Positions 17,532 to 25,449 of a DNA stretch of 64,000 bases are shown piece after piece (position 1 is the stretch's first letter; the number at the start of each line of letters is the position of its first letter). The translations under genes were made by a program, and so were the position numbers. The notes beneath the pieces were generated by a model. That model saw nothing but the letters and a program-made list of their open reading frames with translations, ran no database searches and was not told where the DNA came from. The stretch comes from a virus. Location of the stretch: positions 48,592 through 112,591 of the IMG/VR virus record IMGVR_UViG_3300028837_001424. One strand, given 5' to 3'.

Positions 17532-18814
17532 TTTTATTTATTAGCGACTTCGATTTTAGGGGTTCGGGATATCTGCACATAGCAACAAGCTTGTGCAACG
17601 AGTTGGCGACTAGACATGGTAGAAAAGTTACTGCGTTGGGCATCGGCTACGACCGATCACAACACAATTGGCCCTTTTCGATTATTCCAGTTCGTCAGCG
17701 CGAATGGGGAAGACATATTCCAGCCATGGTCCATAACTTTATCCAGATGGGGAAATCTGGCCAATGGGATGAAGTAGAGGCGATTGTTGTTGCCTTAGAT
17801 ATTCCTATGCACGCAAATATGATGAAGATCAAAAGGGAAAACACGCCCTATATAGGCATCTTTCCAATTGAGAGCGGCCCTTTATGCAATACATGGGACT
17901 TTGCTATTGGTCACATGAGCGAACGATTAGTGATTAGCGAGTTCGGAAAGCATATGATTGACGAGTCTGGCACCAATACCTCCGTTTATATACCTATAGG
18001 AATCGATTCAACATCTTGGCGTATGCCATCGGATGTAGAAAGGAAGGCAATTAGGAAAGGGATGGGTTATGATGAAGATCAGTTTGTGGTTCTGACGGTT
18101 GCCGATAATCAAGAGCGCAAAAACTTGAGCATAGCGGCAGATGTTATAGAGCGCCTCAAAAAACATTTAAACGTGAGGTGGTCGTTGGTGACTCGAATCA
18201 ACTGTCCAGTAGGCTGGAAGCTCGACGATCTCATGCATCAATTCGACATAATTGATCAAGTAGATAAATATGATAAGGGACTGGCGTTTGATCGGCTATG
18301 GATGCTATATGCTTCAGCAGACGCATTCCTGTTGACGAGCAAGGCCGAGGGGCTTTGTTTACCAATCCTAGAAGCAATGGCAACTGGGTTGCCAGTTGTG
18401 GCAACCTCTTGTACCGCAATTCCCGAACACATTTGGGAAGATCCTGATTGGAGTCGCTGTAGTGATGGTATCTGGCACAAAGGAAAGCCACGAGGCCGAA
18501 GAGGCTATGGTTTGAACGTGGAATACACAACTATTGATCCTTGGGGTAACTCCGTTAGAAGCTTTCCAGATCCCAAGCACGCCGTAAAATTGCTAAGGAA
18601 GATCGCCAAGATGAAGCCGTCTCAAAAGCAGGATTTCATTCAACCAGGTAGGGACTATGCCGTTGGTCGAACTTGGCAACGAGCAGGAAATGTACTGGAA
18701 GAGACGCTCAAACGGGTGATCAAAAAGGCGCAACCAAAAGATGAGCCTGGAACTGTGATACCATCATCACAGCCAAGGGTGATACCCGAAATAACAGAGG
18801 AGAATTCGGTATGA
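17528..18814 (+). CDS. Glycosyltransferase family 4 (GT-B)
   Basis: NQERKN, LYASADAFLLTSKAEGLCLPILEAMATGLPVV. Confidence 0.85.
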   Translation: MILFISDFDFRGSGYLHIATSLCNELATRHGRKVTALGIGYDRSQHNWPFSIIPVRQREWGRHIPAMVHNFIQMGKSGQWDEVEAIVVALDIPMHANMMKIKRENTPYIGIFPIESGPLCNTWDFAIGHMSERLVISEFGKHMIDESGTNTSVYIPIGIDSTSWRMPSDVERKAIRKGMGYDEDQFVVLTVADNQERKNLSIAADVIERLKKHLNVRWSLVTRINCPVGWKLDDLMHQFDIIDQVDKYDKGLAFDRLWMLYASADAFLLTSKAEGLCLPILEAMATGLPVVATSCTAIPEHIWEDPDWSRCSDGIWHKGKPRGRRGYGLNVEYTTIDPWGNSVRSFPDPKHAVKLLRKIAKMKPSQKQDFIQPGRDYAVGRTWQRAGNVLEETLKRVIKKAQPKDEPGTVIPSSQPRVIPEITEENSV

Positions 18815-19710
18815 GCAAGCGCACAAGGGCAAGAAAGCCAAAACAGGGAAGAGCAAGAAAGAAACAAGGACCAGCGCCGAAAACATTGGTTGATATCTGT
18901 ATGCTGGTCTTTGGTGAGTGGGGGTTACTCTCAAAAGCTATCAGGGCGATTCCGGCTGCAGCCGAGGGGCTGAATGCCAGCTATCGAGTCATAGTCGTCG
19001 ATAATGGCACACCTGATTGGGAGACTGAGGAAAAGGAAATTGTAACGGCCAAGGAACAATCAGCACCAATTAAGGAACTGCTTAGGCCACAGGACATCTT
19101 TTTTAGGCTCGATGAAAACAAGGGCTTCCCCGGTGGTTACAACGTCGCGGTCGGCAAGGGGCGCTCGCCGCTTATTCTCATCTTGACTTCAGACGTTTTC
19201 CTGTTTCCTGGCGCGATTACAAAACTTGTTAGCGTTCTGGACGATCCTGAAGTTGGTATCGCAAGCCCGATGTTGCTCTATCCAGCGGACGAATCTCCCC
19301 ACGGGCCTCCTGGTAGCGTGCAGCATGCCGGCATTGGATTCGATATTCGAGGCGATCCCTATCATATTTTCATGGGTTGGCAGCCAGATCATGAGAAGGT
19401 AAATCAGCGTAGAGAGTTACAAGCGGTTACGGGAGCATGTATTCTAACTCGGCGTGCTTTATGGCAAAGAATAGGCGGCTTCTCTGAGCTTTATAATCAG
19501 GGAACATTTGAGGATATGGAGCTTGCATTTGCCATCCGCCAAATGGGCTACAAAATAATTTTCGAGCCAAGCGCGCGAGGTGAACACTATGTTGGAGGTT
19601 CCATAAAACATGGTGCTATGAGGCCGGGTTTTAATCTCGCATTAAATTCAACAATTTTCCGTGGCCGTTGGGCACCATCTCTGAAATGGGATACTTATCG
19701 ATTTTATTGA
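18811..19710 (+). CDS. Glycosyltransferase family 2
   Basis: VVDNG, NKGFPGGYN, VQHAG, AVTGAC, IGGFSELYNQGTFEDMEL. Confidence 0.85.
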   Translation: MSKRTRARKPKQGRARKKQGPAPKTLVDICMLVFGEWGLLSKAIRAIPAAAEGLNASYRVIVVDNGTPDWETEEKEIVTAKEQSAPIKELLRPQDIFFRLDENKGFPGGYNVAVGKGRSPLILILTSDVFLFPGAITKLVSVLDDPEVGIASPMLLYPADESPHGPPGSVQHAGIGFDIRGDPYHIFMGWQPDHEKVNQRRELQAVTGACILTRRALWQRIGGFSELYNQGTFEDMELAFAIRQMGYKIIFEPSARGEHYVGGSIKHGAMRPGFNLALNSTIFRGRWAPSLKWDTYRFY

Positions 19711-19794
19711 CCCTGCCGTGCCAAGCCCAACCTAACATCGCCAGACCTCGCATCGCCAAGCCGTACTCCGCCGCGAACCGCCTAGCCATGCCTC
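19710..19794 (-). ncRNA. Pentamer guide unit A1: 17 x (NN + GGY-type triplet)
   Basis: Minus: GA ggc AT ggc TA ggc GG ttc GC ggc GG agt AC ggc TT ggc GA tgc GA ggt CT ggc GA tgt TA ggt TG ggc TT ggc AC ggc AG ggt. Confidence 0.8.
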
Positions 19795-19807
19795 GTTTAT
19801 AATTCAT

Positions 19808-19872
19808 TCCTAGCCTCGCCACACCGCACCAAACACTGCGCCACCTAGCCGGACACCGCCCCACCTTGCCCT
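19808..19872 (-). ncRNA. Pentamer guide unit A2: 13 x (NN + GGY-type triplet)
   Basis: Minus: AG ggc AA ggt GG ggc GG tgt CC ggc TA ggt GG cgc AG tgt TT ggt GC ggt GT ggc GA ggc TA gga. Confidence 0.8.
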
Positions 19873-19906
19873 AACTGGGGAGAGTTCTCACATACTCTCC
19901 CCAATT
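19873..19906 (-). other. RNA hairpin immediately 5' of array A
   Basis: Minus AATTGGGGAGAGT-atgtgaga-ACTCTCCCCAGTT, 13-bp stem with one U-G wobble that pairs only on the minus strand. Confidence 0.75.
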
Positions 19907-19910
19907 CGAA

Positions 19911-20507
19911 TCAAAGTATCGAAACTTCGAATCGTCCATATGGCCCGCCCTTTGCAGGACGCCAATCGCCAAGACCTACAGCGTTGCCAGCCAGTTCGAG
20001 CCAGTGGATGAGTCTGTCTTTATCCACAAACTCTTCGTTGTACTGTAGCTCGCCTTCAATACTCCAATCTTCTGGAATAATTGGGCGAGTGCGCATGACG
20101 GTAGCCTGCCCGACACGAACGCCAATGCGGAAGCGGAAGCGTTCATCTTTCCACAGTTCCTTGGGATCTTTAGGACCGTCGTATTGAAGGACATAGTGGT
20201 GGTCACAAAATATACCAACACCTGCTGCCTTTCCTTCCTTCTCCATACGAGCGGCGCTACCCCTGCCAGCCAAGGCCGCCTTTAGTAATCGACCTGGAAT
20301 GACAGGCACTCCGTCATTGATGTATAGCGCACCCATAAACTCAAGGCGCGCCATTTCCTCGAAATCCTTCTCAGTCTTCTTGCGCTGAGAACTCACCTTC
20401 TTGAGCTTTTTTGCCCAAGTATTCAATGGATCTGCTAGCTGTCCATTGTGGAGGATCAGGGGGCTGATCCCCGTCAAACGAAATTTCAGAGTCTTCAGGA
20501 CGTTCAT
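19911..20507 (-). CDS. RAMP/Cas7-like protein 1 (putative guide-RNA-binding, Vipr-like), 198 aa
   Basis: RBS GGAG; N-terminal LKFRLTGISPLILH, central IPGRLLKAAL, RTRP..W, C-terminal Gly-rich loop GLGDWRPAKGGPYGRFEV; flanked by pentamer arrays. Confidence 0.75.
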   Translation of the reverse strand: MNVLKTLKFRLTGISPLILHNGQLADPLNTWAKKLKKVSSQRKKTEKDFEEMARLEFMGALYINDGVPVIPGRLLKAALAGRGSAARMEKEGKAAGVGIFCDHHYVLQYDGPKDPKELWKDERFRFRIGVRVGQATVMRTRPIIPEDWSIEGELQYNEEFVDKDRLIHWLELAGNAVGLGDWRPAKGGPYGRFEVSIL

Positions 20508-20805
20508 CGAACTTCTCCAATATCTTAACCGGCAAGCCCGCTTCCACATTGTCCTCTATTATCGTTTCGGCTCGACGTGAGTATCGAAGCCCTCTGATAT
20601 ATGAGGTGAGAAAGTCGTGGCATCGACGGCAGACGGTTATGAGATCCTCACCGATCTCTTCTCCGTATCTTTCGTATGTCTTATGATGCACCTCCAATTC
20701 TTCTACACAAGGAACTCCTGTTAATTCGGCAATGCCGAATATTTTTGAAAGTTGACATTCGTAGTTATCTCTTTCTAGGATTGCTTTTCTTACTAGGTTA
20801 TCCAT
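20371..20805 (-). CDS. HNH endonuclease overlapping the 5' end of the RAMP gene
   Basis: RBS GGAG; RKAILERDNYECQ...C...LEVHHKTY...EDLITVCRRCH. Confidence 0.8.
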   Translation of the reverse strand: MDNLVRKAILERDNYECQLSKIFGIAELTGVPCVEELEVHHKTYERYGEEIGEDLITVCRRCHDFLTSYIRGLRYSRRAETIIEDNVEAGLPVKILEKFDERPEDSEISFDGDQPPDPPQWTASRSIEYLGKKAQEGEFSAQED

Positions 20806-20826
20806 AATGGACTCCGAATAAAGTAA

Positions 20827-20921
20827 TCCTTGCCTCGCCCTGTCGTGCCGGACCTTGCCAAACCGTACCAGACCGCGCCCAAACATACACTGCCAGATCC
20901 AGCCACGCCTGGCCGCGCCTC
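20827..20921 (-). ncRNA. Pentamer guide unit B1: 19 units
   Basis: Plus: tcc TT gcc TC gcc CT gtc GT gcc GG acc TT gcc AA acc GT acc AG acc GC gcc CA aac AT aca CT gcc AG atc CA gcc AC gcc TG gcc GC gcc TC. Confidence 0.8.
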
Positions 20922-20934
20922 GAATATAATTCCT

Positions 20935-21009
20935 TCCCTGCCATGCCCCGCCGTATCCCACCGCGCCAGATCGTGCCTAGCCGGACTTCGCCACGCCAAA
21001 CCACGCCTT
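20935..21009 (-). ncRNA. Pentamer guide unit B2: 15 units
   Basis: Minus NN series: AA GT TT GT GA CC TA AC CT GC GG AC GG AT AG. Confidence 0.8.
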
Positions 21010-21023
21010 GAACATAATTGCTG

Positions 21024-21098
21024 TCCTTGCCGCGCCCCACCAAACCTCTCCATGCAGCACCAAGCCTGGTCGCGCCAAACCTTAACTTACCGTGCCTC
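21024..21098 (-). ncRNA. Pentamer guide unit B3: 15 units
   Basis: Minus NN series: GA AC AA AA TT GC CA TT GC AT GA TT GG GC AA. Confidence 0.8.
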
Positions 21099-21108
21099 GA
21101 AACCAAAA

Positions 21109-21172
21109 TCCCGCCACCCATTATTCGAGGTTGCCCTACCATGAACAAGCCAAGCTGTAATGGGAAGCGGGA
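21109..21172 (-). other. Structured leader stem-loop 5' of array B
   Basis: Minus TCCCGC-tt-CCCATTA ... TAATGGG-tg-GCGGGA with inner TTGTTC/GGGCAA helix. Confidence 0.65.
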
Positions 21173-21227
21173 GTCTGATCTCGATAAAAACAAAAGGCTT
21201 GGTAGATGTCCATGGCAGGTTAGTAGA

Positions 21228-21256
21228 AGTGTACCATAGCGGGCACAGTATGTCAA
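21228..21256 (-). promoter_or_regulatory. Sigma70-type promoter for the array B-HNH-RAMP1-array A operon
   Basis: TTGACA-17 nt-TACACT. Confidence 0.75.
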
Positions 21257-21311
21257 GACCAATGTATTAATCGTTTAAAACAACCAAATTCCATGATATA
21301 ATTATCTTTGC

Positions 21312-21643
21312 ACTTTACCAAACCAATCGCTTGGTGGCTCGAAGAATACCGTTCTACGGGTTAAAAAAGGCACACACGACAGGTGGCGGTGTGGTTCCAG
21401 GCGATGGGAAGCATAAGGGTCGTGGAGATCGGGCGAATGCGCCGCCTTACCGATCGAGCGCGACATCGTTGGTAGCTCAAAACTACATATCCAGTAGACG
21501 ACGATGTGCGGGCAAGATTCCCGCCAGTGACGTTGATGCTAGCTAGGCCAGTTAGCGGAGTCCTGTGGCCCGAATAATGCGACTGATTGCCGAGAGGTTG
21601 GGAGGATTGGCATCCTCCCCTGAGCGATTGTGTTTGGTGAAGT
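21312..21643 (+). ncRNA. Putative ~330-nt structured non-coding RNA of unknown class
   Basis: Ends pair (ACTTTACCAAACCAATCGCTT / GAGCGATTGTGTTTGGTGAAGT), several internal hairpins, extended -10 TGATATAAT at 21294-21302. Confidence 0.6.
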
Positions 21644-21868
21644 CATCAGAAAGGAAATTGGTAAATTTCATGGTAAAATAGATTTGCGAGCGCGCCTCTT
21701 CATTGGGCTATATTTCCCCTAATGATGAGAACTACTCCTGAGTAGCGCTTAGCTCAGGAGGCTAAGCTGGTAACAGCGGACGCGGTAGCCGGTGCCGCTA
21801 TACACAGAGACCGGCAATCACTTTGTAACAAAGGAGGCCAACATGACGAACCTTTAGTGAGGTGAATC

Positions 21869-22072
21869 ATGTCCAAAATTCAGAAAGGCGGTAAGAAAAA
21901 CCGCAAACATGGCCGTGCAGCGCGCAAGCCCAAAACTGCACGGTATCGTATTTCCAATCGTCGAGCAAAAAATAAAACCAAAAGAGTTCTGCGTAGCAGC
22001 GGCAAAAAGGCTGCAAAACAATACGCGCGGGAACAAAACACAACTGGCTATCTACTCAAATTGCTAAGTTGA
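21869..22072 (+). CDS. Small, very basic (K/R-rich) protein
   Basis: RBS GAGGTG; MSKIQKGGKKNRKHGRAARKPK. Confidence 0.6.
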   Translation: MSKIQKGGKKNRKHGRAARKPKTARYRISNRRAKNKTKRVLRSSGKKAAKQYAREQNTTGYLLKLLS

Positions 22073-22139
22073 ACACTGATATGTAACAACTTATTGCACG
22101 ATAACATATTTTATGTTATTGCGAATTTTAATGTTAATG

Positions 22140-22173
22140 AAAAAGCCCCTAAGCTGGAAGCCAGGGACTTTTT
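22140..22173. terminator. Bidirectional intrinsic terminator
   Basis: AAAAAGCCCCTAAGC-tggaa-GCCAGGGACTTTT between convergent units. Confidence 0.6.
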
Positions 22174-22226
22174 CGTATCGCGCCATTGTGCCACTCCGGC
22201 ACGGTTACATTATATCACAACTGGGC

Positions 22227-22664
22227 TTACTCAGCGACGATTGGCTCAGGGAGCATTTCTCCCATAATGTCGGTTTCTATTTCGGCCAATCTATAAGTAT
22301 CCGTATCAGTAAGATGCTCAAAACCGACTCGGTAATACGTCCGCACGTTTTGATTAAAGCTAACGTAGTCAATCCAGCCGCGAATAACGTAATAATCAAG
22401 AGCGTTAGGCTCATTCTTGTATTCCTTCATGTCACATTCGGACCACTCTTGAAATACTGCTCCCGTCTTATCCCATAGAATATCTTCGATGGTCTTTTGA
22501 GAGCGGCTGCATAGCTGACCCTTAATTGACGGGCCTTGATCACTGGTAGTTGCTTTACCATTTAGTAAATAATGTGCGGAAGTGGCAACGGCATATGCCA
22601 GCAGAATGAGAGTAAAAACGGCAACATATCTTAGACATCCTTTACCGGTCGTATTTTTCTTCAT
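22227..22664 (-). CDS. Hypothetical membrane-anchored protein with its own promoter (moron-like)
   Basis: N-terminal TM segment YVAVFTLILLAYAVA; RBS AAGGA. Confidence 0.6.
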   Translation of the reverse strand: MKKNTTGKGCLRYVAVFTLILLAYAVATSAHYLLNGKATTSDQGPSIKGQLCSRSQKTIEDILWDKTGAVFQEWSECDMKEYKNEPNALDYYVIRGWIDYVSFNQNVRTYYRVGFEHLTDTDTYRLAEIETDIMGEMLPEPIVAE

Positions 22665-22687
22665 GGTATTTATCCTTTACTGTGATT

Positions 22688-22732
22688 ATGCTACCCGATA
22701 CGGTACAGTATGTCAAGTTACCTTGGTACTAT
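22688..22732 (-). promoter_or_regulatory. Promoter with conserved upstream box (copy 1)
   Basis: ATAGTACCAAGGTAAC-TTGACA-17-TAGCAT. Confidence 0.65.
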
Positions 22733-22741
22733 CAATAAATA

Positions 22742-22769
22742 AAGAGGCGGGTATATATACCTGCCTCTT
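22742..22769 (-). terminator. Intrinsic terminator ending the RAMP2 operon
   Basis: Minus AAGAGGCAGGTAT/ATACCCGCCTCTT followed by TATTTATT. Confidence 0.55.
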
Positions 22770-22881
22770 GTGCTGTCTGGCAACCAGACGATCACCCACC
22801 ACTGATTGTCAACTTATAAGTTGTCAAATGATGATGGAATGACAACAAATATGTTATCAACAACTAAAGCTCAATGCGATT

Positions 22882-23076
22882 TTAGATCTCATTGATAAAT
22901 TGTCCAAGTCGTTCAACTTTTTCTTGAACAACACTAAAGTTTTTTGCGACACGAGCAACATCTCCAAAAATCAAGCCCCTATTTGCTTTATCAAGAGCTT
23001 TATTAATGTCTTGATACAAGCTCTTGGCAGTCTCGATGGGTTTGTAATTGGCACAGTTCTCACAAGTTTTGTTCAT
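22882..23076 (-). CDS. Small hypothetical protein (CxxC) downstream of array C
   Basis: RBS GGAGGT; MNKTCENCANY. Confidence 0.55.
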   Translation of the reverse strand: MNKTCENCANYKPIETAKSLYQDINKALDKANRGLIFGDVARVAKNFSVVQEKVERLGQFINEI

Positions 23077-23099
23077 CTTAGTTACCTCCGATGTAAAAA

Positions 23100-23234
23100 G
23101 CTTTGCTATGCTTTGCTCTGCTTTGCTGCGCTCTGCTGCGCTGCGCTTTGCTAAGCTTTGCTGGGCTCGGCTACGCTGCGCTTGGCTGCGCTCCGCTTGG
23201 CTAGGCTCGGCTGCGCTCTGCTGCGCTGCGCTAC
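23100..23234 (-). ncRNA. Pentamer array C: 27 x (NN + AGC)
   Basis: Plus strand GCT-NN 27 times with invariant GCT; begins 5 nt after the RAMP2 stop codon; followed by a T tract on minus. Confidence 0.75.
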
Positions 23235-23239
23235 GACCA

Positions 23240-23878
23240 CTATTCCATTGTTACAGGGTTAGTATCCTTCTCAAGAGTTTGCACAGTCCCGATTTCTTTA
23301 ACTTTCTTCCATTCAACTACTTCAAATGAACCAAAGGTTGGTCTATAGGCACATAGCCCTACGAATATACCGCCACGATTAAACCAATCCTCGGCCTTGG
23401 AAATGCTGAAATACTCATTTTCGTAAATGCTTATATTGAATTTTAATGACCAGGGCAAATCCAAAACGGGACGACTCACATTGACCCTAACTTTTGGGTT
23501 TGGCCTTGCCATTCTTGTATCTATGTAAAATGGAGACTTATTCAAATCTTCGGCGACCTCCAGTTTTACATTGCTTTCTTCGTGTTCTTTTCCATTTTGG
23601 AAAGGAATATATGCGGGTTGCACAGAGATACAACCACGGATCACTGGAGACAAAGTTTTCCACTCTTTGCTATTTACAAACATCCGTAGGCAGGAATGGC
23701 TATCTTTACTCGCCAGAAAGCCTTCGATGCTTGAGCTTGGCAAGCAGACGGTTTTGCCGTCGCGGGGGTCGAGGTAAATTTTTTGCTCGACGGGCGTTTC
23801 GTCCTGCGAGACCCATTTGTCGAACATGATCGGCGTCAGACCGTTTAAGACTACTTGTACTTTCACCATGTTTAGCAT
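23240..23878 (-). CDS. RAMP/Cas7-like protein 2 (Vipr-like), 212 aa
   Basis: VQVVLNGLTPIMFD, LPSSSIEGFL, SRPVLDLPWSLKF, GGIFVGLCAYRPTFGSFEV: same motif order as RAMP1. Confidence 0.7.
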   Translation of the reverse strand: MLNMVKVQVVLNGLTPIMFDKWVSQDETPVEQKIYLDPRDGKTVCLPSSSIEGFLASKDSHSCLRMFVNSKEWKTLSPVIRGCISVQPAYIPFQNGKEHEESNVKLEVAEDLNKSPFYIDTRMARPNPKVRVNVSRPVLDLPWSLKFNISIYENEYFSISKAEDWFNRGGIFVGLCAYRPTFGSFEVVEWKKVKEIGTVQTLEKDTNPVTME

Positions 23879-24236
23879 TGTTCTTGCTCCTTTCGCTTAT
23901 AAAGCGGCGCGACTGGTCAACCAATTCTCGGCGCGCATCACTTATTCTTTCTATTAGAGGTTGCTCTTTTCCTTCCAACCAGTTTATTACGAGCTTTAGA
24001 ATTTCATCATCAAGTTTAAATATCTCCCGATCATCAAAGCAATAAGAAGCCAGTAGGCACTTAAGTTCATCTTCGACTTTCAGGGGTTCATCAACTAGGC
24101 TGGCGTGGCATATTGTTAATTTGCTGTTGGCGGCTAAAAAAGCACGATAGCGCCTATTGAAATCGTCGGCTTTTCCTATTTTGAATAGATTATCAAATCC
24201 GAGGTCAAATAGGTAAACGTAGCCGCTAGACATCAT
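23706..24236 (-). CDS. GIY-YIG family (T5orf172/Mug113-like) nuclease overlapping the 5' end of RAMP2
   Basis: GYVYL....LFKIGK..D..RR...VEDEL...REIF; RBS AAGGAG. Confidence 0.75.
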   Translation of the reverse strand: MMSSGYVYLFDLGFDNLFKIGKADDFNRRYRAFLAANSKLTICHASLVDEPLKVEDELKCLLASYCFDDREIFKLDDEILKLVINWLEGKEQPLIERISDARRELVDQSRRFISERSKNNAKHGESTSSLKRSDADHVRQMGLAGRNARRAKNLPRPPRRQNRLLAKLKHRRLSGE

Positions 24237-24256
24237 TCTCCTTCATTTGTAACTTA

Positions 24257-24285
24257 ATCATATCACATACTTGATTATGAGGCAA
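24257..24285 (-). promoter_or_regulatory. Candidate promoter for GIY-YIG-RAMP2-array C operon
   Basis: TTGCCT-17-TATGAT. Confidence 0.5.
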
Positions 24286-24392
24286 ATTTAAATAGACGGT
24301 GCAAATGCTCTACTAACCCATTACAAAAATGGCTAATATAAAGTCGAATTTGAAGTTTTTTCGTCGCGGCAATTTGTGGAGGGATGTGAGAA

Positions 24393-24707
24393 ATGACCGA
24401 GGAACAAGCAACGCAAGGTCCGAAGCTCGATCCGCGCTACAACCCAGCAGTTGAAAATAGCAAGATCAGGATAGAGTTTTCGGGGAATACCGCGCGCATC
24501 GCCGACGTTGGCTTTTACCAAGTTGATTCGTTTCAACTAATTGCGATTGGCGAGTATTTGAAGCAGCGCGGCCTTCAAATGATTGCAATGACTGAGGCTA
24601 AAGTTGCTCAGGACATGATGCGACGTGCCCAAGCCGAAAAAATAGCAGTCGCCGGACGTATTCCTGAGCCTGACGAGCTACCTGCTAACATGAGGCCACC
24701 TGGCTAG
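24393..24707 (+). CDS. Hypothetical protein
   Basis: RBS GGAGG. Confidence 0.55.
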   Translation: MTEEQATQGPKLDPRYNPAVENSKIRIEFSGNTARIADVGFYQVDSFQLIAIGEYLKQRGLQMIAMTEAKVAQDMMRRAQAEKIAVAGRIPEPDELPANMRPPG

Positions 24708-24744
24708 AGATTTTAGCCTCATAAATTGAATAAAGGATTCGACA

Positions 24745-25449
24745 ATGGCTGTGGATTGGGTTCATTTGGCACCCGTTATCCTGACAGACGATCTTTTCTT
24801 TAGTTATATTGGAGATCCGGTTTATACGGGTACTTCAACCCAGCGCGATGCTGCTTATTTAATAGCCGAGCAGGAAATGATCCAAGAGATCAAGACGCCA
24901 CTCTTGCCCACGTCGATGACAGGCACTTGGAGGTATCCAGGTATTTATGGTAACCCAACCATCGTTCTACCTTATCAAAAGATTAATACTGTAGACAGCG
25001 TTGCAATTCTATATGGTGGTGGTACTGGTGTTTGCGGCCTACAAAGTGTCGCCGGCTGCCATCGGATTAAGAGTGATACATATGGATACATTGATGCTCA
25101 TTGTATAGGCAATCTTGCAATATTAAATTGCGGTTGCACTATTACCGATATGTATCAGGTTCGAGTAGCTTTTACGGCTGGTTTATCAACTGGCATCGCC
25201 GCTGATGACAAGTCATTACACATGGCATTGGCGATGATCGCAGAGCAATATTTAACAGAGATTATCGATCCTGGTGCTAGTCCGGGCGGGCCAGGCGCAC
25301 CTGGCATTGTAGGTTGGTCATCATTGGGGTACAGCGAGAAAATGAATCCGGCTGCATTAAAGTTGACTCCAATGGGGGCTAGTGGAAGGATGAATGCGGT
25401 TAGACGTATGGTCCGGCACCTTAAAAAGAAACGTGCCCTGAGGTTCTGA
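24745..25449 (+). CDS. Putative head-tail adaptor/connector
   Basis: Position before head-closure and neck genes; S.SSLGYSE-type C-terminal motif. Confidence 0.5.
   Translation: MAVDWVHLAPVILTDDLFFSYIGDPVYTGTSTQRDAAYLIAEQEMIQEIKTPLLPTSMTGTWRYPGIYGNPTIVLPYQKINTVDSVAILYGGGTGVCGLQSVAGCHRIKSDTYGYIDAHCIGNLAILNCGCTITDMYQVRVAFTAGLSTGIAADDKSLHMALAMIAEQYLTEIIDPGASPGGPGAPGIVGWSSLGYSEKMNPAALKLTPMGASGRMNAVRRMVRHLKKKRALRF

What the first reader, a model, noticed from the sequence alone, without database searches (positions are those of the whole stretch)
20827..20921. Guide B1 spells a tyrosine-recombinase active-site box in antisense
Seen: plus-strand dinucleotides TT TC CT GT GG TT AA GT AG GC CA AT CT AG CA AC TG GC TC can be read as [LF]-S-L-V-G-[FL]-[KN]-V-[SR]-A-[HQ]-[MI]-L-[RS]-[HQ]-T-[CW]-A-S, e.g. 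VGFKVSAHMLRHTCAS. Established: H-x-L-R-H-[TS]-x-A-[ST] is the box II signature of integrases and XerC/D. No such gene lies in the window. Inference: the guide targets an integrase of a competing prophage, satellite or ICE, or a host Xer gene. The choice among ambiguous residues is mine.
Basis: partly seen in the sequence, partly recalled or inferred. Interest (0 to 1): 0.88.

Follow-up and report, generated by a model that had tools for sequence, protein, structure and literature searches.

The report
Phage VIPR guide aimed at integrases
The 95-base stretch is one guide RNA of a phage VIPR system (a CRISPR-related RNA-guided DNA-binding system first described in 2026), and its variable letters do spell the catalytic 'box II' of tyrosine integrase genes, so it is probably aimed at a rival integrating element, but no fully matching target gene was found.

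Summary
Window 20827-20921 is 19 strictly phased pentamers. On the minus strand each is NN followed by GGY. It is one of five such tracts flanking an HNH gene and a Cas7-like gene. This is a VIPR locus (Vipr, vap, vrRNAs; bioRxiv 10.64898/2026.04.26.720920).

Support for the integrase reading:
- The box II pattern H-x-L-R-H-[TS]-x-A-[TS] occurs in B1 alone among 177 guides, and in 0 of 500 shuffles.
- The nine 3' dinucleotides hit 24 IMG/VR sites. All are in frame in integrase genes (H[MI]LRHTCAS). The reversed control hit none.
- The upstream dinucleotides fit a natural recombinase subfamily (VGFxVxAHMLRHT; 68 of 68 metagenome sites).

Against it, no sequence reaches the published threshold of 80% NN identity. 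The best found were 29/38 in metagenomes and 26/38 in IMG/VR. The two halves of the guide fit different subfamilies. The phage itself has no integrase.

Verdict: observation confirmed, interpretation partly supported. This is a new member of a known kind. A VIPR guide on the active-site codons of a (serine) recombinase is already published (10.64898/2026.10.15.759431). Earlier notes of this scan report integrase-reading VIPR guides on other DNA.

The parts
20827..20921 (-). vrRNA guide tract B1: 19 NN-GGY pentamers (15 with GG, 14 full GGY). This is the finding itself.
   Evidence: box II reading
20935..21009 (-). vrRNA guide tract B2 (15 pentamers)
21024..21098 (-). vrRNA guide tract B3 (15 pentamers)
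21228..21256 (-). Sigma-70-like promoter (TTGACA-17-TACACT with TG) upstream of array B. A consensus match only.
20922..20934 (-). AU-rich junction motif (consensus ATTATATTCGA) between B2 and B1. Similar motifs follow the other tracts. Probably a processing site or a short 3' tail.
   Evidence: the function is inferred
20371..20805 (-). vap-like accessory gene: HNH endonuclease, 144 aa. It overlaps the vipr start by 137 nt.
19911..20507 (-). vipr gene: Cas7/Csm3-like RAMP protein, 198 aa, phrog_4652
19808..19872 (-). vrRNA guide tract A2 (13 pentamers). Its best own-genome site is the vipr C-terminal codons.
19710..19794 (-). vrRNA guide tract A1 (17 pentamers). Its best own-genome site is the GTFED region of the adjacent GT2 gene.

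Best explanation
B1 is one guide RNA (vrRNA) of a phage-borne VIPR system. That part is near certain, about 0.95. The minus strand is transcribed, probably from the promoter-like site at 21256-21228. Copies of the Cas7-like Vipr protein bind one pentamer each. They hide the GGY triplets and present the NN pairs, which pair with double-stranded DNA while skipping every third base. This mechanism is taken from the SUSP1 and P. fulva papers and is not shown here. Read that way, B1 addresses the coding strand of a tyrosine recombinase gene across its catalytic box II (...VGFKV[SR]A-HMLRHT[CW]A...), with the skipped bases on the wobble positions. Escape mutations would therefore have to change active-site residues. 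The likely target is the integrase of a competing integrating element (prophage, satellite or island) that is not in the collections searched. The adjacent HNH protein may cut the bound DNA rather than merely silence it; that is inference. The confidence given is for the integrase target.
For: System identity:
- The Vipr homologue has 196 relatives and 417 IMG/VR loci.
- In the 80 loci fetched, 189 of 189 NNGG pentamer runs lie on the gene's own strand, mostly just downstream of it.
- It is 35.8% identical over its full length (E 9e-26) to the Felixounavirus protein, including phage SUSP2.
- The AlphaFold model has pLDDT 95, and the top Foldseek hits are Csm3/Cas7 subunits.
- The published system description matches.

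Target:
- The box II pattern is unique to B1 among 177 guides and occurs in 0 of 500 shuffles.
- Twenty-four of 24 IMG/VR hits of the 9-dinucleotide pattern lie in frame in H[MI]LRHTCAS integrases, against 0 hits for the reversed-order control.
- The loosened 13-unit pattern (units 4-16; 11 specified, 2 left open) gives 68 of 68 in-frame sites in recombinases reading VGFxVxAHMLRHTY[AG]T. One was confirmed as PF00589.
- tblastn of the decoded peptide returns almost only annotated tyrosine integrases.
- Precedent: SUSP1 vrRNA4 sits on the active-site codons of a satellite recombinase, wobble-aligned.
- No guide of this phage self-targets at 0.8 or more, as published for other VIPRs.
Against: - No natural sequence reaches 0.8 NN identity. 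The best are 26/38 in IMG/VR and 29/38 in metagenomes.
- By my own binomial estimate, about 100 sites with 29/38 or more are expected by chance in a terabase, so those scores mean nothing on their own.
- The 3' half fits one integrase subfamily (HMLRHTCAS, phage contigs of about 42 kb) and the 5' half fits another (VGFxVxAHMLRHTY[AG]T). None carries both.
- The loosened pattern was designed after an integrase had been seen, so its 68 of 68 is partly circular.
- The motif was recognised after the fact, among many motifs a reader might know.
- Four of 19 scaffolds lack the GG (TG-GAT, AG-TGT, AT-GTT, AC-GAC) and a fifth (AA-GGA) has GG but not the pyrimidine; the final TC may be junction rather than guide.
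- Expression and processing of the RNA were not tested.
Confidence: 0.6

Rival explanations
1. B1 is a working VIPR guide but its real target is some other gene. On this view the resemblance to integrase box II is a coincidence found by post hoc motif recognition.
For: No target at 0.8 or more was found in any collection. Full-length matches of 29/38 are at chance level for terabase collections (own calculation). The central 9-dinucleotide pattern gave only 7 chance-like, non-integrase hits in GTDB genomes.
Against: The box II pattern appears in 0 of 500 shuffles of 177 guides. The 9-dinucleotide pattern gives 24 hits against 0 for the reversed control, all in one conserved motif and in frame. 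The upstream units independently fit a natural recombinase subfamily.
Confidence: 0.2
2. B1 is a broad, short-footprint guide. Only the roughly 9 box II units matter, so it acts on many integrases that read HMLRHTCAS with CTN/AGR codons, such as the 24 IMG/VR phage contigs (many of about 42 kb).
For: There are 24 exact 9-unit matches in IMG/VR phage integrases. The published SUSP1 vrRNA4 analysis centres on an 18-bp, six-unit footprint.
Against: In the published structures, protomers and the R-loop build up from the 3' end of the vrRNA towards the 5' end. In B1 the box II units are the 5' half, so the mismatched 3' half would be met first (inference). The published target calls use identity over the full length. 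Perturbing NN pairing abolished silencing.
Confidence: 0.1
3. B1 is a decaying or inactive unit. It has degenerate scaffolds, and its NN string is a relic of a former anti-integrase guide.
For: Four of 19 pentamers lack GG. At 19 units B1 is longer than most guides of the family, where the usual lengths are 10-17. No extant target was found.
Against: The discovery paper reports internal degeneracy as frequent in vrRNAs. The 5-nt phase is unbroken across all 19 units. The tract sits between the promoter-like site and the genes, like its neighbours.
Confidence: 0.08
4. B1 targets a host XerC or XerD gene.
For: Xer proteins carry H-x-L-R-H in box II (established knowledge).
Against: Canonical Xer box II reads LRH-[SA]-F-A-T, which conflicts with T-[CW]-A-S at three residues. 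The upstream VGFKV[SR]A has no Xer counterpart that I know of. Silencing an essential-like host function is not among the published natural VIPR targets. No direct search was made.
Confidence: 0.02

Closest known systems
VIPR systems (Vipr + vap + vrRNA), bioRxiv 10.64898/2026.04.26.720920; structures in 10.64898/2026.04.26.720927
   Same: A lone Cas7-like RAMP gene, homologous to the Felixounavirus (SUSP-type) Vipr. An adjacent accessory gene. Flanking same-strand tracts of GGY/NN pentamers. Guides read with a one-base skip on wobble positions. No self-target at 0.8 or more. Carried by a phage.
   Different: The tracts here are separated only by a junction of about 12 nt (ATTATATTCGA), not by a long pseudoknotted 3' tail. 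The accessory protein is an HNH nuclease in a phage genome, whereas the paper says predicted nucleases occur only in its antiviral types III and V, which it finds enriched in defence islands of host genomes. The type of this locus was not assigned. No expression or binding data exist for it.
SUSP1 vrRNA4 against the F5 satellite excision recombinase (bioRxiv 10.64898/2026.10.15.759431)
   Same: A phage VIPR guide placed on codons of a recombinase active site, with the skipped bases on the wobble positions, so that escape would require catalytic-site changes. The aim is to immobilise a competing integrating element.
   Different: That recombinase is a serine recombinase, and its target is known and tested (89% of read bases across satellites). 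Here the reading is box II of a tyrosine recombinase and no cognate element has been found.
Class 1 CRISPR crRNA-Cas7 filaments (type III Csm3, type VII Cas7)
   Same: The fold of the guide-binding subunit (Foldseek probability about 1.0, TM 0.45-0.55), and periodic interruption of guide-target pairing by the protein.
   Different: A 5-nt unit with only 2 read bases, instead of a 6-nt unit with 5 read bases. There is no CRISPR repeat-spacer array and there are no adaptation genes. The target is double-stranded DNA bound as a triplex R-loop.

Membership tests
VIPR system | Vipr protein: a minimal RAMP (RRM core, G-loop, thumb) homologous to the characterised Vipr | tested here: met
   tblastn gives 35.8% identity, 100% coverage and E 9e-26 to SUSP2 and other Felixounavirus phages. 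It matches phrog_4652 at E 2.7e-50. The AF2 model has pLDDT 95 and its top PDB matches are Csm3/Cas7. Invariant H20 and D181 in the family alignment sit at positions like the G1-contacting H17 and D175 reported for P. fulva Vipr; that correspondence is inferred.
VIPR system | vrRNA tracts of tandem GGY/NN (YNNGG) units flanking vipr on the same strand | tested here: met
   There are five tracts of 13-19 units, all on the gene's strand. The same holds in 80 related loci, where 189 of 189 runs are on the gene's strand.
VIPR system | Adjacent vipr-accessory (vap) gene with a DNA-related function | tested here: met
   An HNH endonuclease domain: Pfam 22.2 bits against a cut-off of 21.4, and several PHROG HNH families. 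It lies directly upstream and overlaps vipr.
VIPR system | Conserved structured 3' tail after each repeat tract | tested here: inconclusive
   Only a shared AU-rich junction of about 12 nt was found. There was no Rfam match such as a hammerhead in 19000-25000. The paper describes several array architectures.
VIPR system | vrRNAs are expressed and co-purify with Vipr | not testable with these tools
Only a promoter-like site is seen.
VIPR system | Guide has a natural target at 80% NN identity or more under the 1-nt skip rule | tested here: not met
   The best full-length identity for B1 is 29/38 (0.76), and 26/38 in IMG/VR. The searches used exact sub-patterns only, so a target with scattered mismatches could have been missed. 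The paper itself found no such hit for 19 of 63 type III guides.
Guide against a tyrosine recombinase (box II) | NN string compatible with H-x-L-R-H-[TS]-x-A-[TS] in one frame | tested here: met
   B1 in antisense, offset 10; unique among 177 guides; 0 of 500 shuffles.
Guide against a tyrosine recombinase (box II) | Gapped DNA matches fall in recombinase genes, in frame, with the skip base on the wobble position | tested here: met
   24 of 24 IMG/VR sites and 68 of 68 metagenome sites. PF00589 was confirmed for L173. The reversed control gave 0 hits.
Guide against a tyrosine recombinase (box II) | A specific recombinase gene matches the whole guide (0.8 or more) | tested here: not met
   Searches found none.

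The most novel reading that the evidence does not exclude
An apparently integrase-less 112-kb phage carries two nuclease-linked VIPR loci, one with an HNH partner and one with a T5orf172/GIY-YIG-like partner. It uses them offensively, and B1 directs cleavage rather than mere silencing to the catalytic box II codons of tyrosine integrases. That would be the first tyrosine-recombinase target for VIPR. It would also be a counter-example to the published view that nuclease-bearing VIPR types are host antiviral systems.
Probability: 0.25. Interest if true: 0.55.

Novelty: new member of a known kind. Interest (0 to 1): 0.35.

Why it matters
VIPR has only just been described, and few natural targets are known outside the SUSP1 and P. 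fulva clades. This locus adds an environmental phage whose guides appear to read three things: a tyrosine integrase active site (B1), the end of a rival vipr gene (A2), and a rival allele of a neighbouring glycosyltransferase (A1). That fits the published picture of warfare between mobile elements and of guides placed on codon-determining positions that cannot mutate freely. It also suggests that recombinase active sites are a recurrent VIPR target across recombinase classes. The HNH and GIY-YIG-like partners in a phage genome may show that nuclease-armed VIPRs are not confined to host defence islands. None of this changes the known mechanism.

Tried and rejected
Target searches that found nothing useful:
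- Exact gapped sub-patterns of B1 with no hit: units 8-19 in IMG/VR and in metagenomes; units 1-10 in IMG/VR; the loosened units 4-16 in IMG/VR.
- Units 8-16 in GTDB genomes gave 7 chance-like, non-integrase hits at 20-27/38.
- Units 10-18 in IMG/VR gave one out-of-frame chance hit.
- A 15-unit pattern with up to 3 mismatches gave nothing in 3 + 401 genomes.

Other attempts that led nowhere:
- hmmscan of 20-residue decoded peptides against Pfam returned nothing.
- A region search seeded with an L131-type integrase gave 49 proteins, at best 13 of 19 residues compatible, all ending TYAT rather than T[CW]AS.
- No guide of this phage matched any of the 185 fetched loci above shuffle level, apart from the pre-selected B1 hits.
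- Own-genome scans with gaps of 0-4 found only A2 at gap 1 above the shuffles. Full-length self matches are all 0.69 or less.
- blastn of the locus against the phage collection found no match.
- A single-protein locus search in IMG/VR found none.
- PHROG annotation of ten large proteins gave too little to infer a host.

Ideas rejected: a CsrA-type GGA sponge, a G-quadruplex, a TRAP-like binding platform and a quintuplet-decoded peptide. I considered these before finding the VIPR papers and dropped them, because the family-wide link to a Cas7-like gene and the published biochemistry explain the array.

Full report
**What is in the sequence**

Window 20827-20921 is, on the minus strand, 19 consecutive pentamers of the form NN-GGY. 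Fifteen carry GG and 14 the full GGY. A scan for CC or GG recurring every 5 nt finds five such tracts in the 64-kb window, all in one orientation:
- A1: 19710-19794
- A2: 19808-19872
- B1: 20827-20921
- B2: 20935-21009
- B3: 21024-21098

Their reading as codon positions 1-2 is correct.

**The surroundings**

Two overlapping minus-strand genes lie between arrays B and A.
- The first is a 144-aa HNH endonuclease (20805-20371). It scores 22.2 bits against Pfam HNH, above the cut-off, and matches several PHROG HNH families.
- The second is a 198-aa protein (20507-19911). It has no Pfam family but matches phrog_4652 at E 2.7e-50.

That protein has 196 relatives in the large protein collection, all unnamed, and 417 loci in IMG/VR. 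In the 80 loci fetched, nearly every one carries 5-nt periodic tracts next to the gene. A parser for NNGG pentamers found 189 runs on the gene's strand and none on the other, mostly just downstream of the stop codon.

An AlphaFold model built from the family alignment has mean pLDDT 95. Its best PDB matches are Csm3/Cas7 subunits of type III and type VII CRISPR complexes.

A sigma-70-like site (TTGACA-17-TACACT) lies upstream of array B on the minus strand. No Rfam family matches the region.

**What it is**

A literature search found that this is a VIPR system. VIPR consists of a phage-encoded ancestral RAMP protein (Vipr), an accessory gene (vap) and vrRNAs made of alternating GGY/NN units.

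The discovery preprint (10.64898/2026.04.26.720920) reports three things. The NN pairs recognise double-stranded DNA with one skipped base per unit. The skipped base overwhelmingly falls on the wobble position. Targets lie on either strand. These were shown by pangenome searches, in vitro binding and GFP repression.

The structural preprint (10.64898/2026.04.26.720927) shows one Vipr protomer per unit, sequestered GGY triplets and a triplex R-loop.

The window's protein is 35.8% identical over its full length to the Felixounavirus protein, including phage SUSP2. B1 is a vrRNA guide tract.

This locus differs from the SUSP1 model in two ways:
- The tracts are separated only by a junction of about 12 nt (ATTATATTCGA).
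- An HNH nuclease is the partner, in a phage genome.

**Testing the integrase reading**

1. The degenerate box II pattern H-x-L-R-H-[TS]-x-A-[TS] occurs once among 177 unique guides (2552 dinucleotides, both orientations), in B1. It occurs in none of 500 shuffles.
2. The nine 3' dinucleotides as a gapped pattern hit 24 IMG/VR contigs. All 24 sites lie in frame in tyrosine integrase genes reading H[MI]LRHTCAS. The same dinucleotides in reversed order hit nothing.
3. tblastn of the decoded peptide returned almost only annotated tyrosine integrases, at weak E-values. Among them are plasmid genes reading RVGF-x-V-T-A-HMLRHTYAT, so the upstream half of the guide also looks like a recombinase.
4. 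A pattern over units 4-16, with two variable units left open and synonymous Leu and Arg codons allowed, found 67 metagenome contigs with 68 sites. All are in frame in recombinases reading VGFxVxAHMLRHTY[AG]T. One of these was confirmed as PF00589; it is the first gene of a run of three, the third also matching PF00589 and the middle one only an integrase N-terminal domain below its cut-off.

**What is missing**

No sequence matches the whole guide.
- The longer exact sub-patterns gave nothing in IMG/VR or the metagenome collection.
- The central nine units gave only seven chance-like, non-integrase hits in the GTDB species genomes.
- Units 10-18 gave one out-of-frame chance hit.
- A 15-unit pattern with up to three mismatches found nothing in 404 genomes.

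The best full-length identities are 26/38 in IMG/VR and 29/38 in metagenomes. Both are below the 0.8 used in the VIPR papers. By my own binomial estimate, scores of 29/38 are expected about a hundred times by chance in a terabase, so they carry no weight alone.

The two halves of B1 fit two different recombinase subfamilies, and none carries both.

The collection scans accept only exact patterns. A real target with scattered mismatches could have been missed.

The final TC of the reading is the GA of the recurring junction motif and may not be guide.

The phage itself has no PF00589 gene in its 112,591 bp. None of its guides matches its own genome at 0.8 or more.

**Mechanism and rivals**

The best-supported account is that B1 guides a Vipr filament to the box II codons of an unsampled tyrosine recombinase gene of a competing integrating element. 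I put this at 0.6.

There is a direct precedent. SUSP1 vrRNA4 sits on active-site codons of a satellite's serine recombinase, wobble-aligned, and thereby blocks excision (10.64898/2026.10.15.759431).

The rivals are:
- A coincidental resemblance, with another true target (0.2).
- A short-footprint guide acting on the many HMLRHTCAS integrases (0.1). This is disfavoured because in the published structures the complex builds up on the target from the 3' end of the vrRNA, and box II occupies the 5' half of B1.
- A decaying unit (0.08).
- A host Xer gene (0.02).

Whether the HNH partner cuts the bound DNA is inference only.

**Novelty**

The system, its gapped code, its wobble alignment and the targeting of a recombinase active site are all published. 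This is a new member of a known kind. The modest additions are the recombinase class (tyrosine rather than serine) and nuclease partners in a phage genome.

Earlier notes of this scan, which I did not check, report integrase-reading VIPR guides on other genomes. The theme may be common.

The closest relatives' arrays and RNA expression therefore could not be examined.

Noticed in passing
window 19808-19872 (A2) versus 19918-19955: In a 10-unit window, guide A2 matches the vipr gene's own C-terminal codons (K-G-G-P-Y-G-R-F-E-V) at 18 of 20 bases under the one-base gap only (gaps 0, 2, 3 and 4 give 14-15; 30 shuffles per gap at most 16). Over its full length the self match is only 18/26 (0.69). 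The closest Vipr relatives (e.g. P0003, ending SKGGPYGRFEVEIL) could fit better, up to about 23/26 if their codons agree. This resembles the published solo vrRNAs that target the end of rival vipr genes while sparing self.
   Followed up: partly
window 19710-19794 (A1) versus 19486-19535: The best own-genome site for guide A1 (22/34) is the GTFED region of the adjacent GT2 glycosyltransferase gene (18811-19710, Pfam PF00535). The score is not above shuffles. Still, both A1 and A2 have their best sites within about 300 nt of the array, which suggests they are aimed at rival alleles of the neighbouring genes.
   Followed up: partly
window 23098-24236: A second VIPR-like locus lies here. It has a divergent Vipr paralogue (23243-23878, minus strand; hhalign probability 96.6%, E 6e-10 against the family) and an overlapping upstream T5orf172/GIY-YIG-like gene (23709-24236). 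It also has one long tract of about 27 pentamers whose constant triplet is AGC rather than GGY (23098-23234). The discovery paper mentions alternative consensus repeats, but an AGC scaffold is not among those I read.
   Followed up: partly
window 20371-20507: The HNH gene overlaps the start of vipr by 137 nt in another frame. The second locus shows a similar overlap between its nuclease-like gene and its Vipr paralogue.
   Followed up: no
L173:454-5139 and related metagenome loci L117-L183: The recombinases reading VGFxVxAHMLRHTY[AG]T are the first of three consecutive genes (404, 538 and 627 aa in L173). The first and third match PF00589; the middle one only a below-cut-off integrase N-terminal domain. 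Named relatives come mostly from Burkholderiales plasmids and chromosomes. This looks like a recombinase-trio element, and none was found in IMG/VR.
   Followed up: partly
G000 whole record (112,591 bp); L185: The phage is poorly covered by PHROGs. Only 4 of 10 large proteins matched any family. It has no detectable tyrosine integrase, its GC content is 45%, and its host is unknown.
   Followed up: partly
L056:2404-2478: One other guide among the 177 reads H-A-[LF]-R-H in antisense, but it continues [CW]-Y rather than [TS]-x-A. It is probably chance.
   Followed up: no
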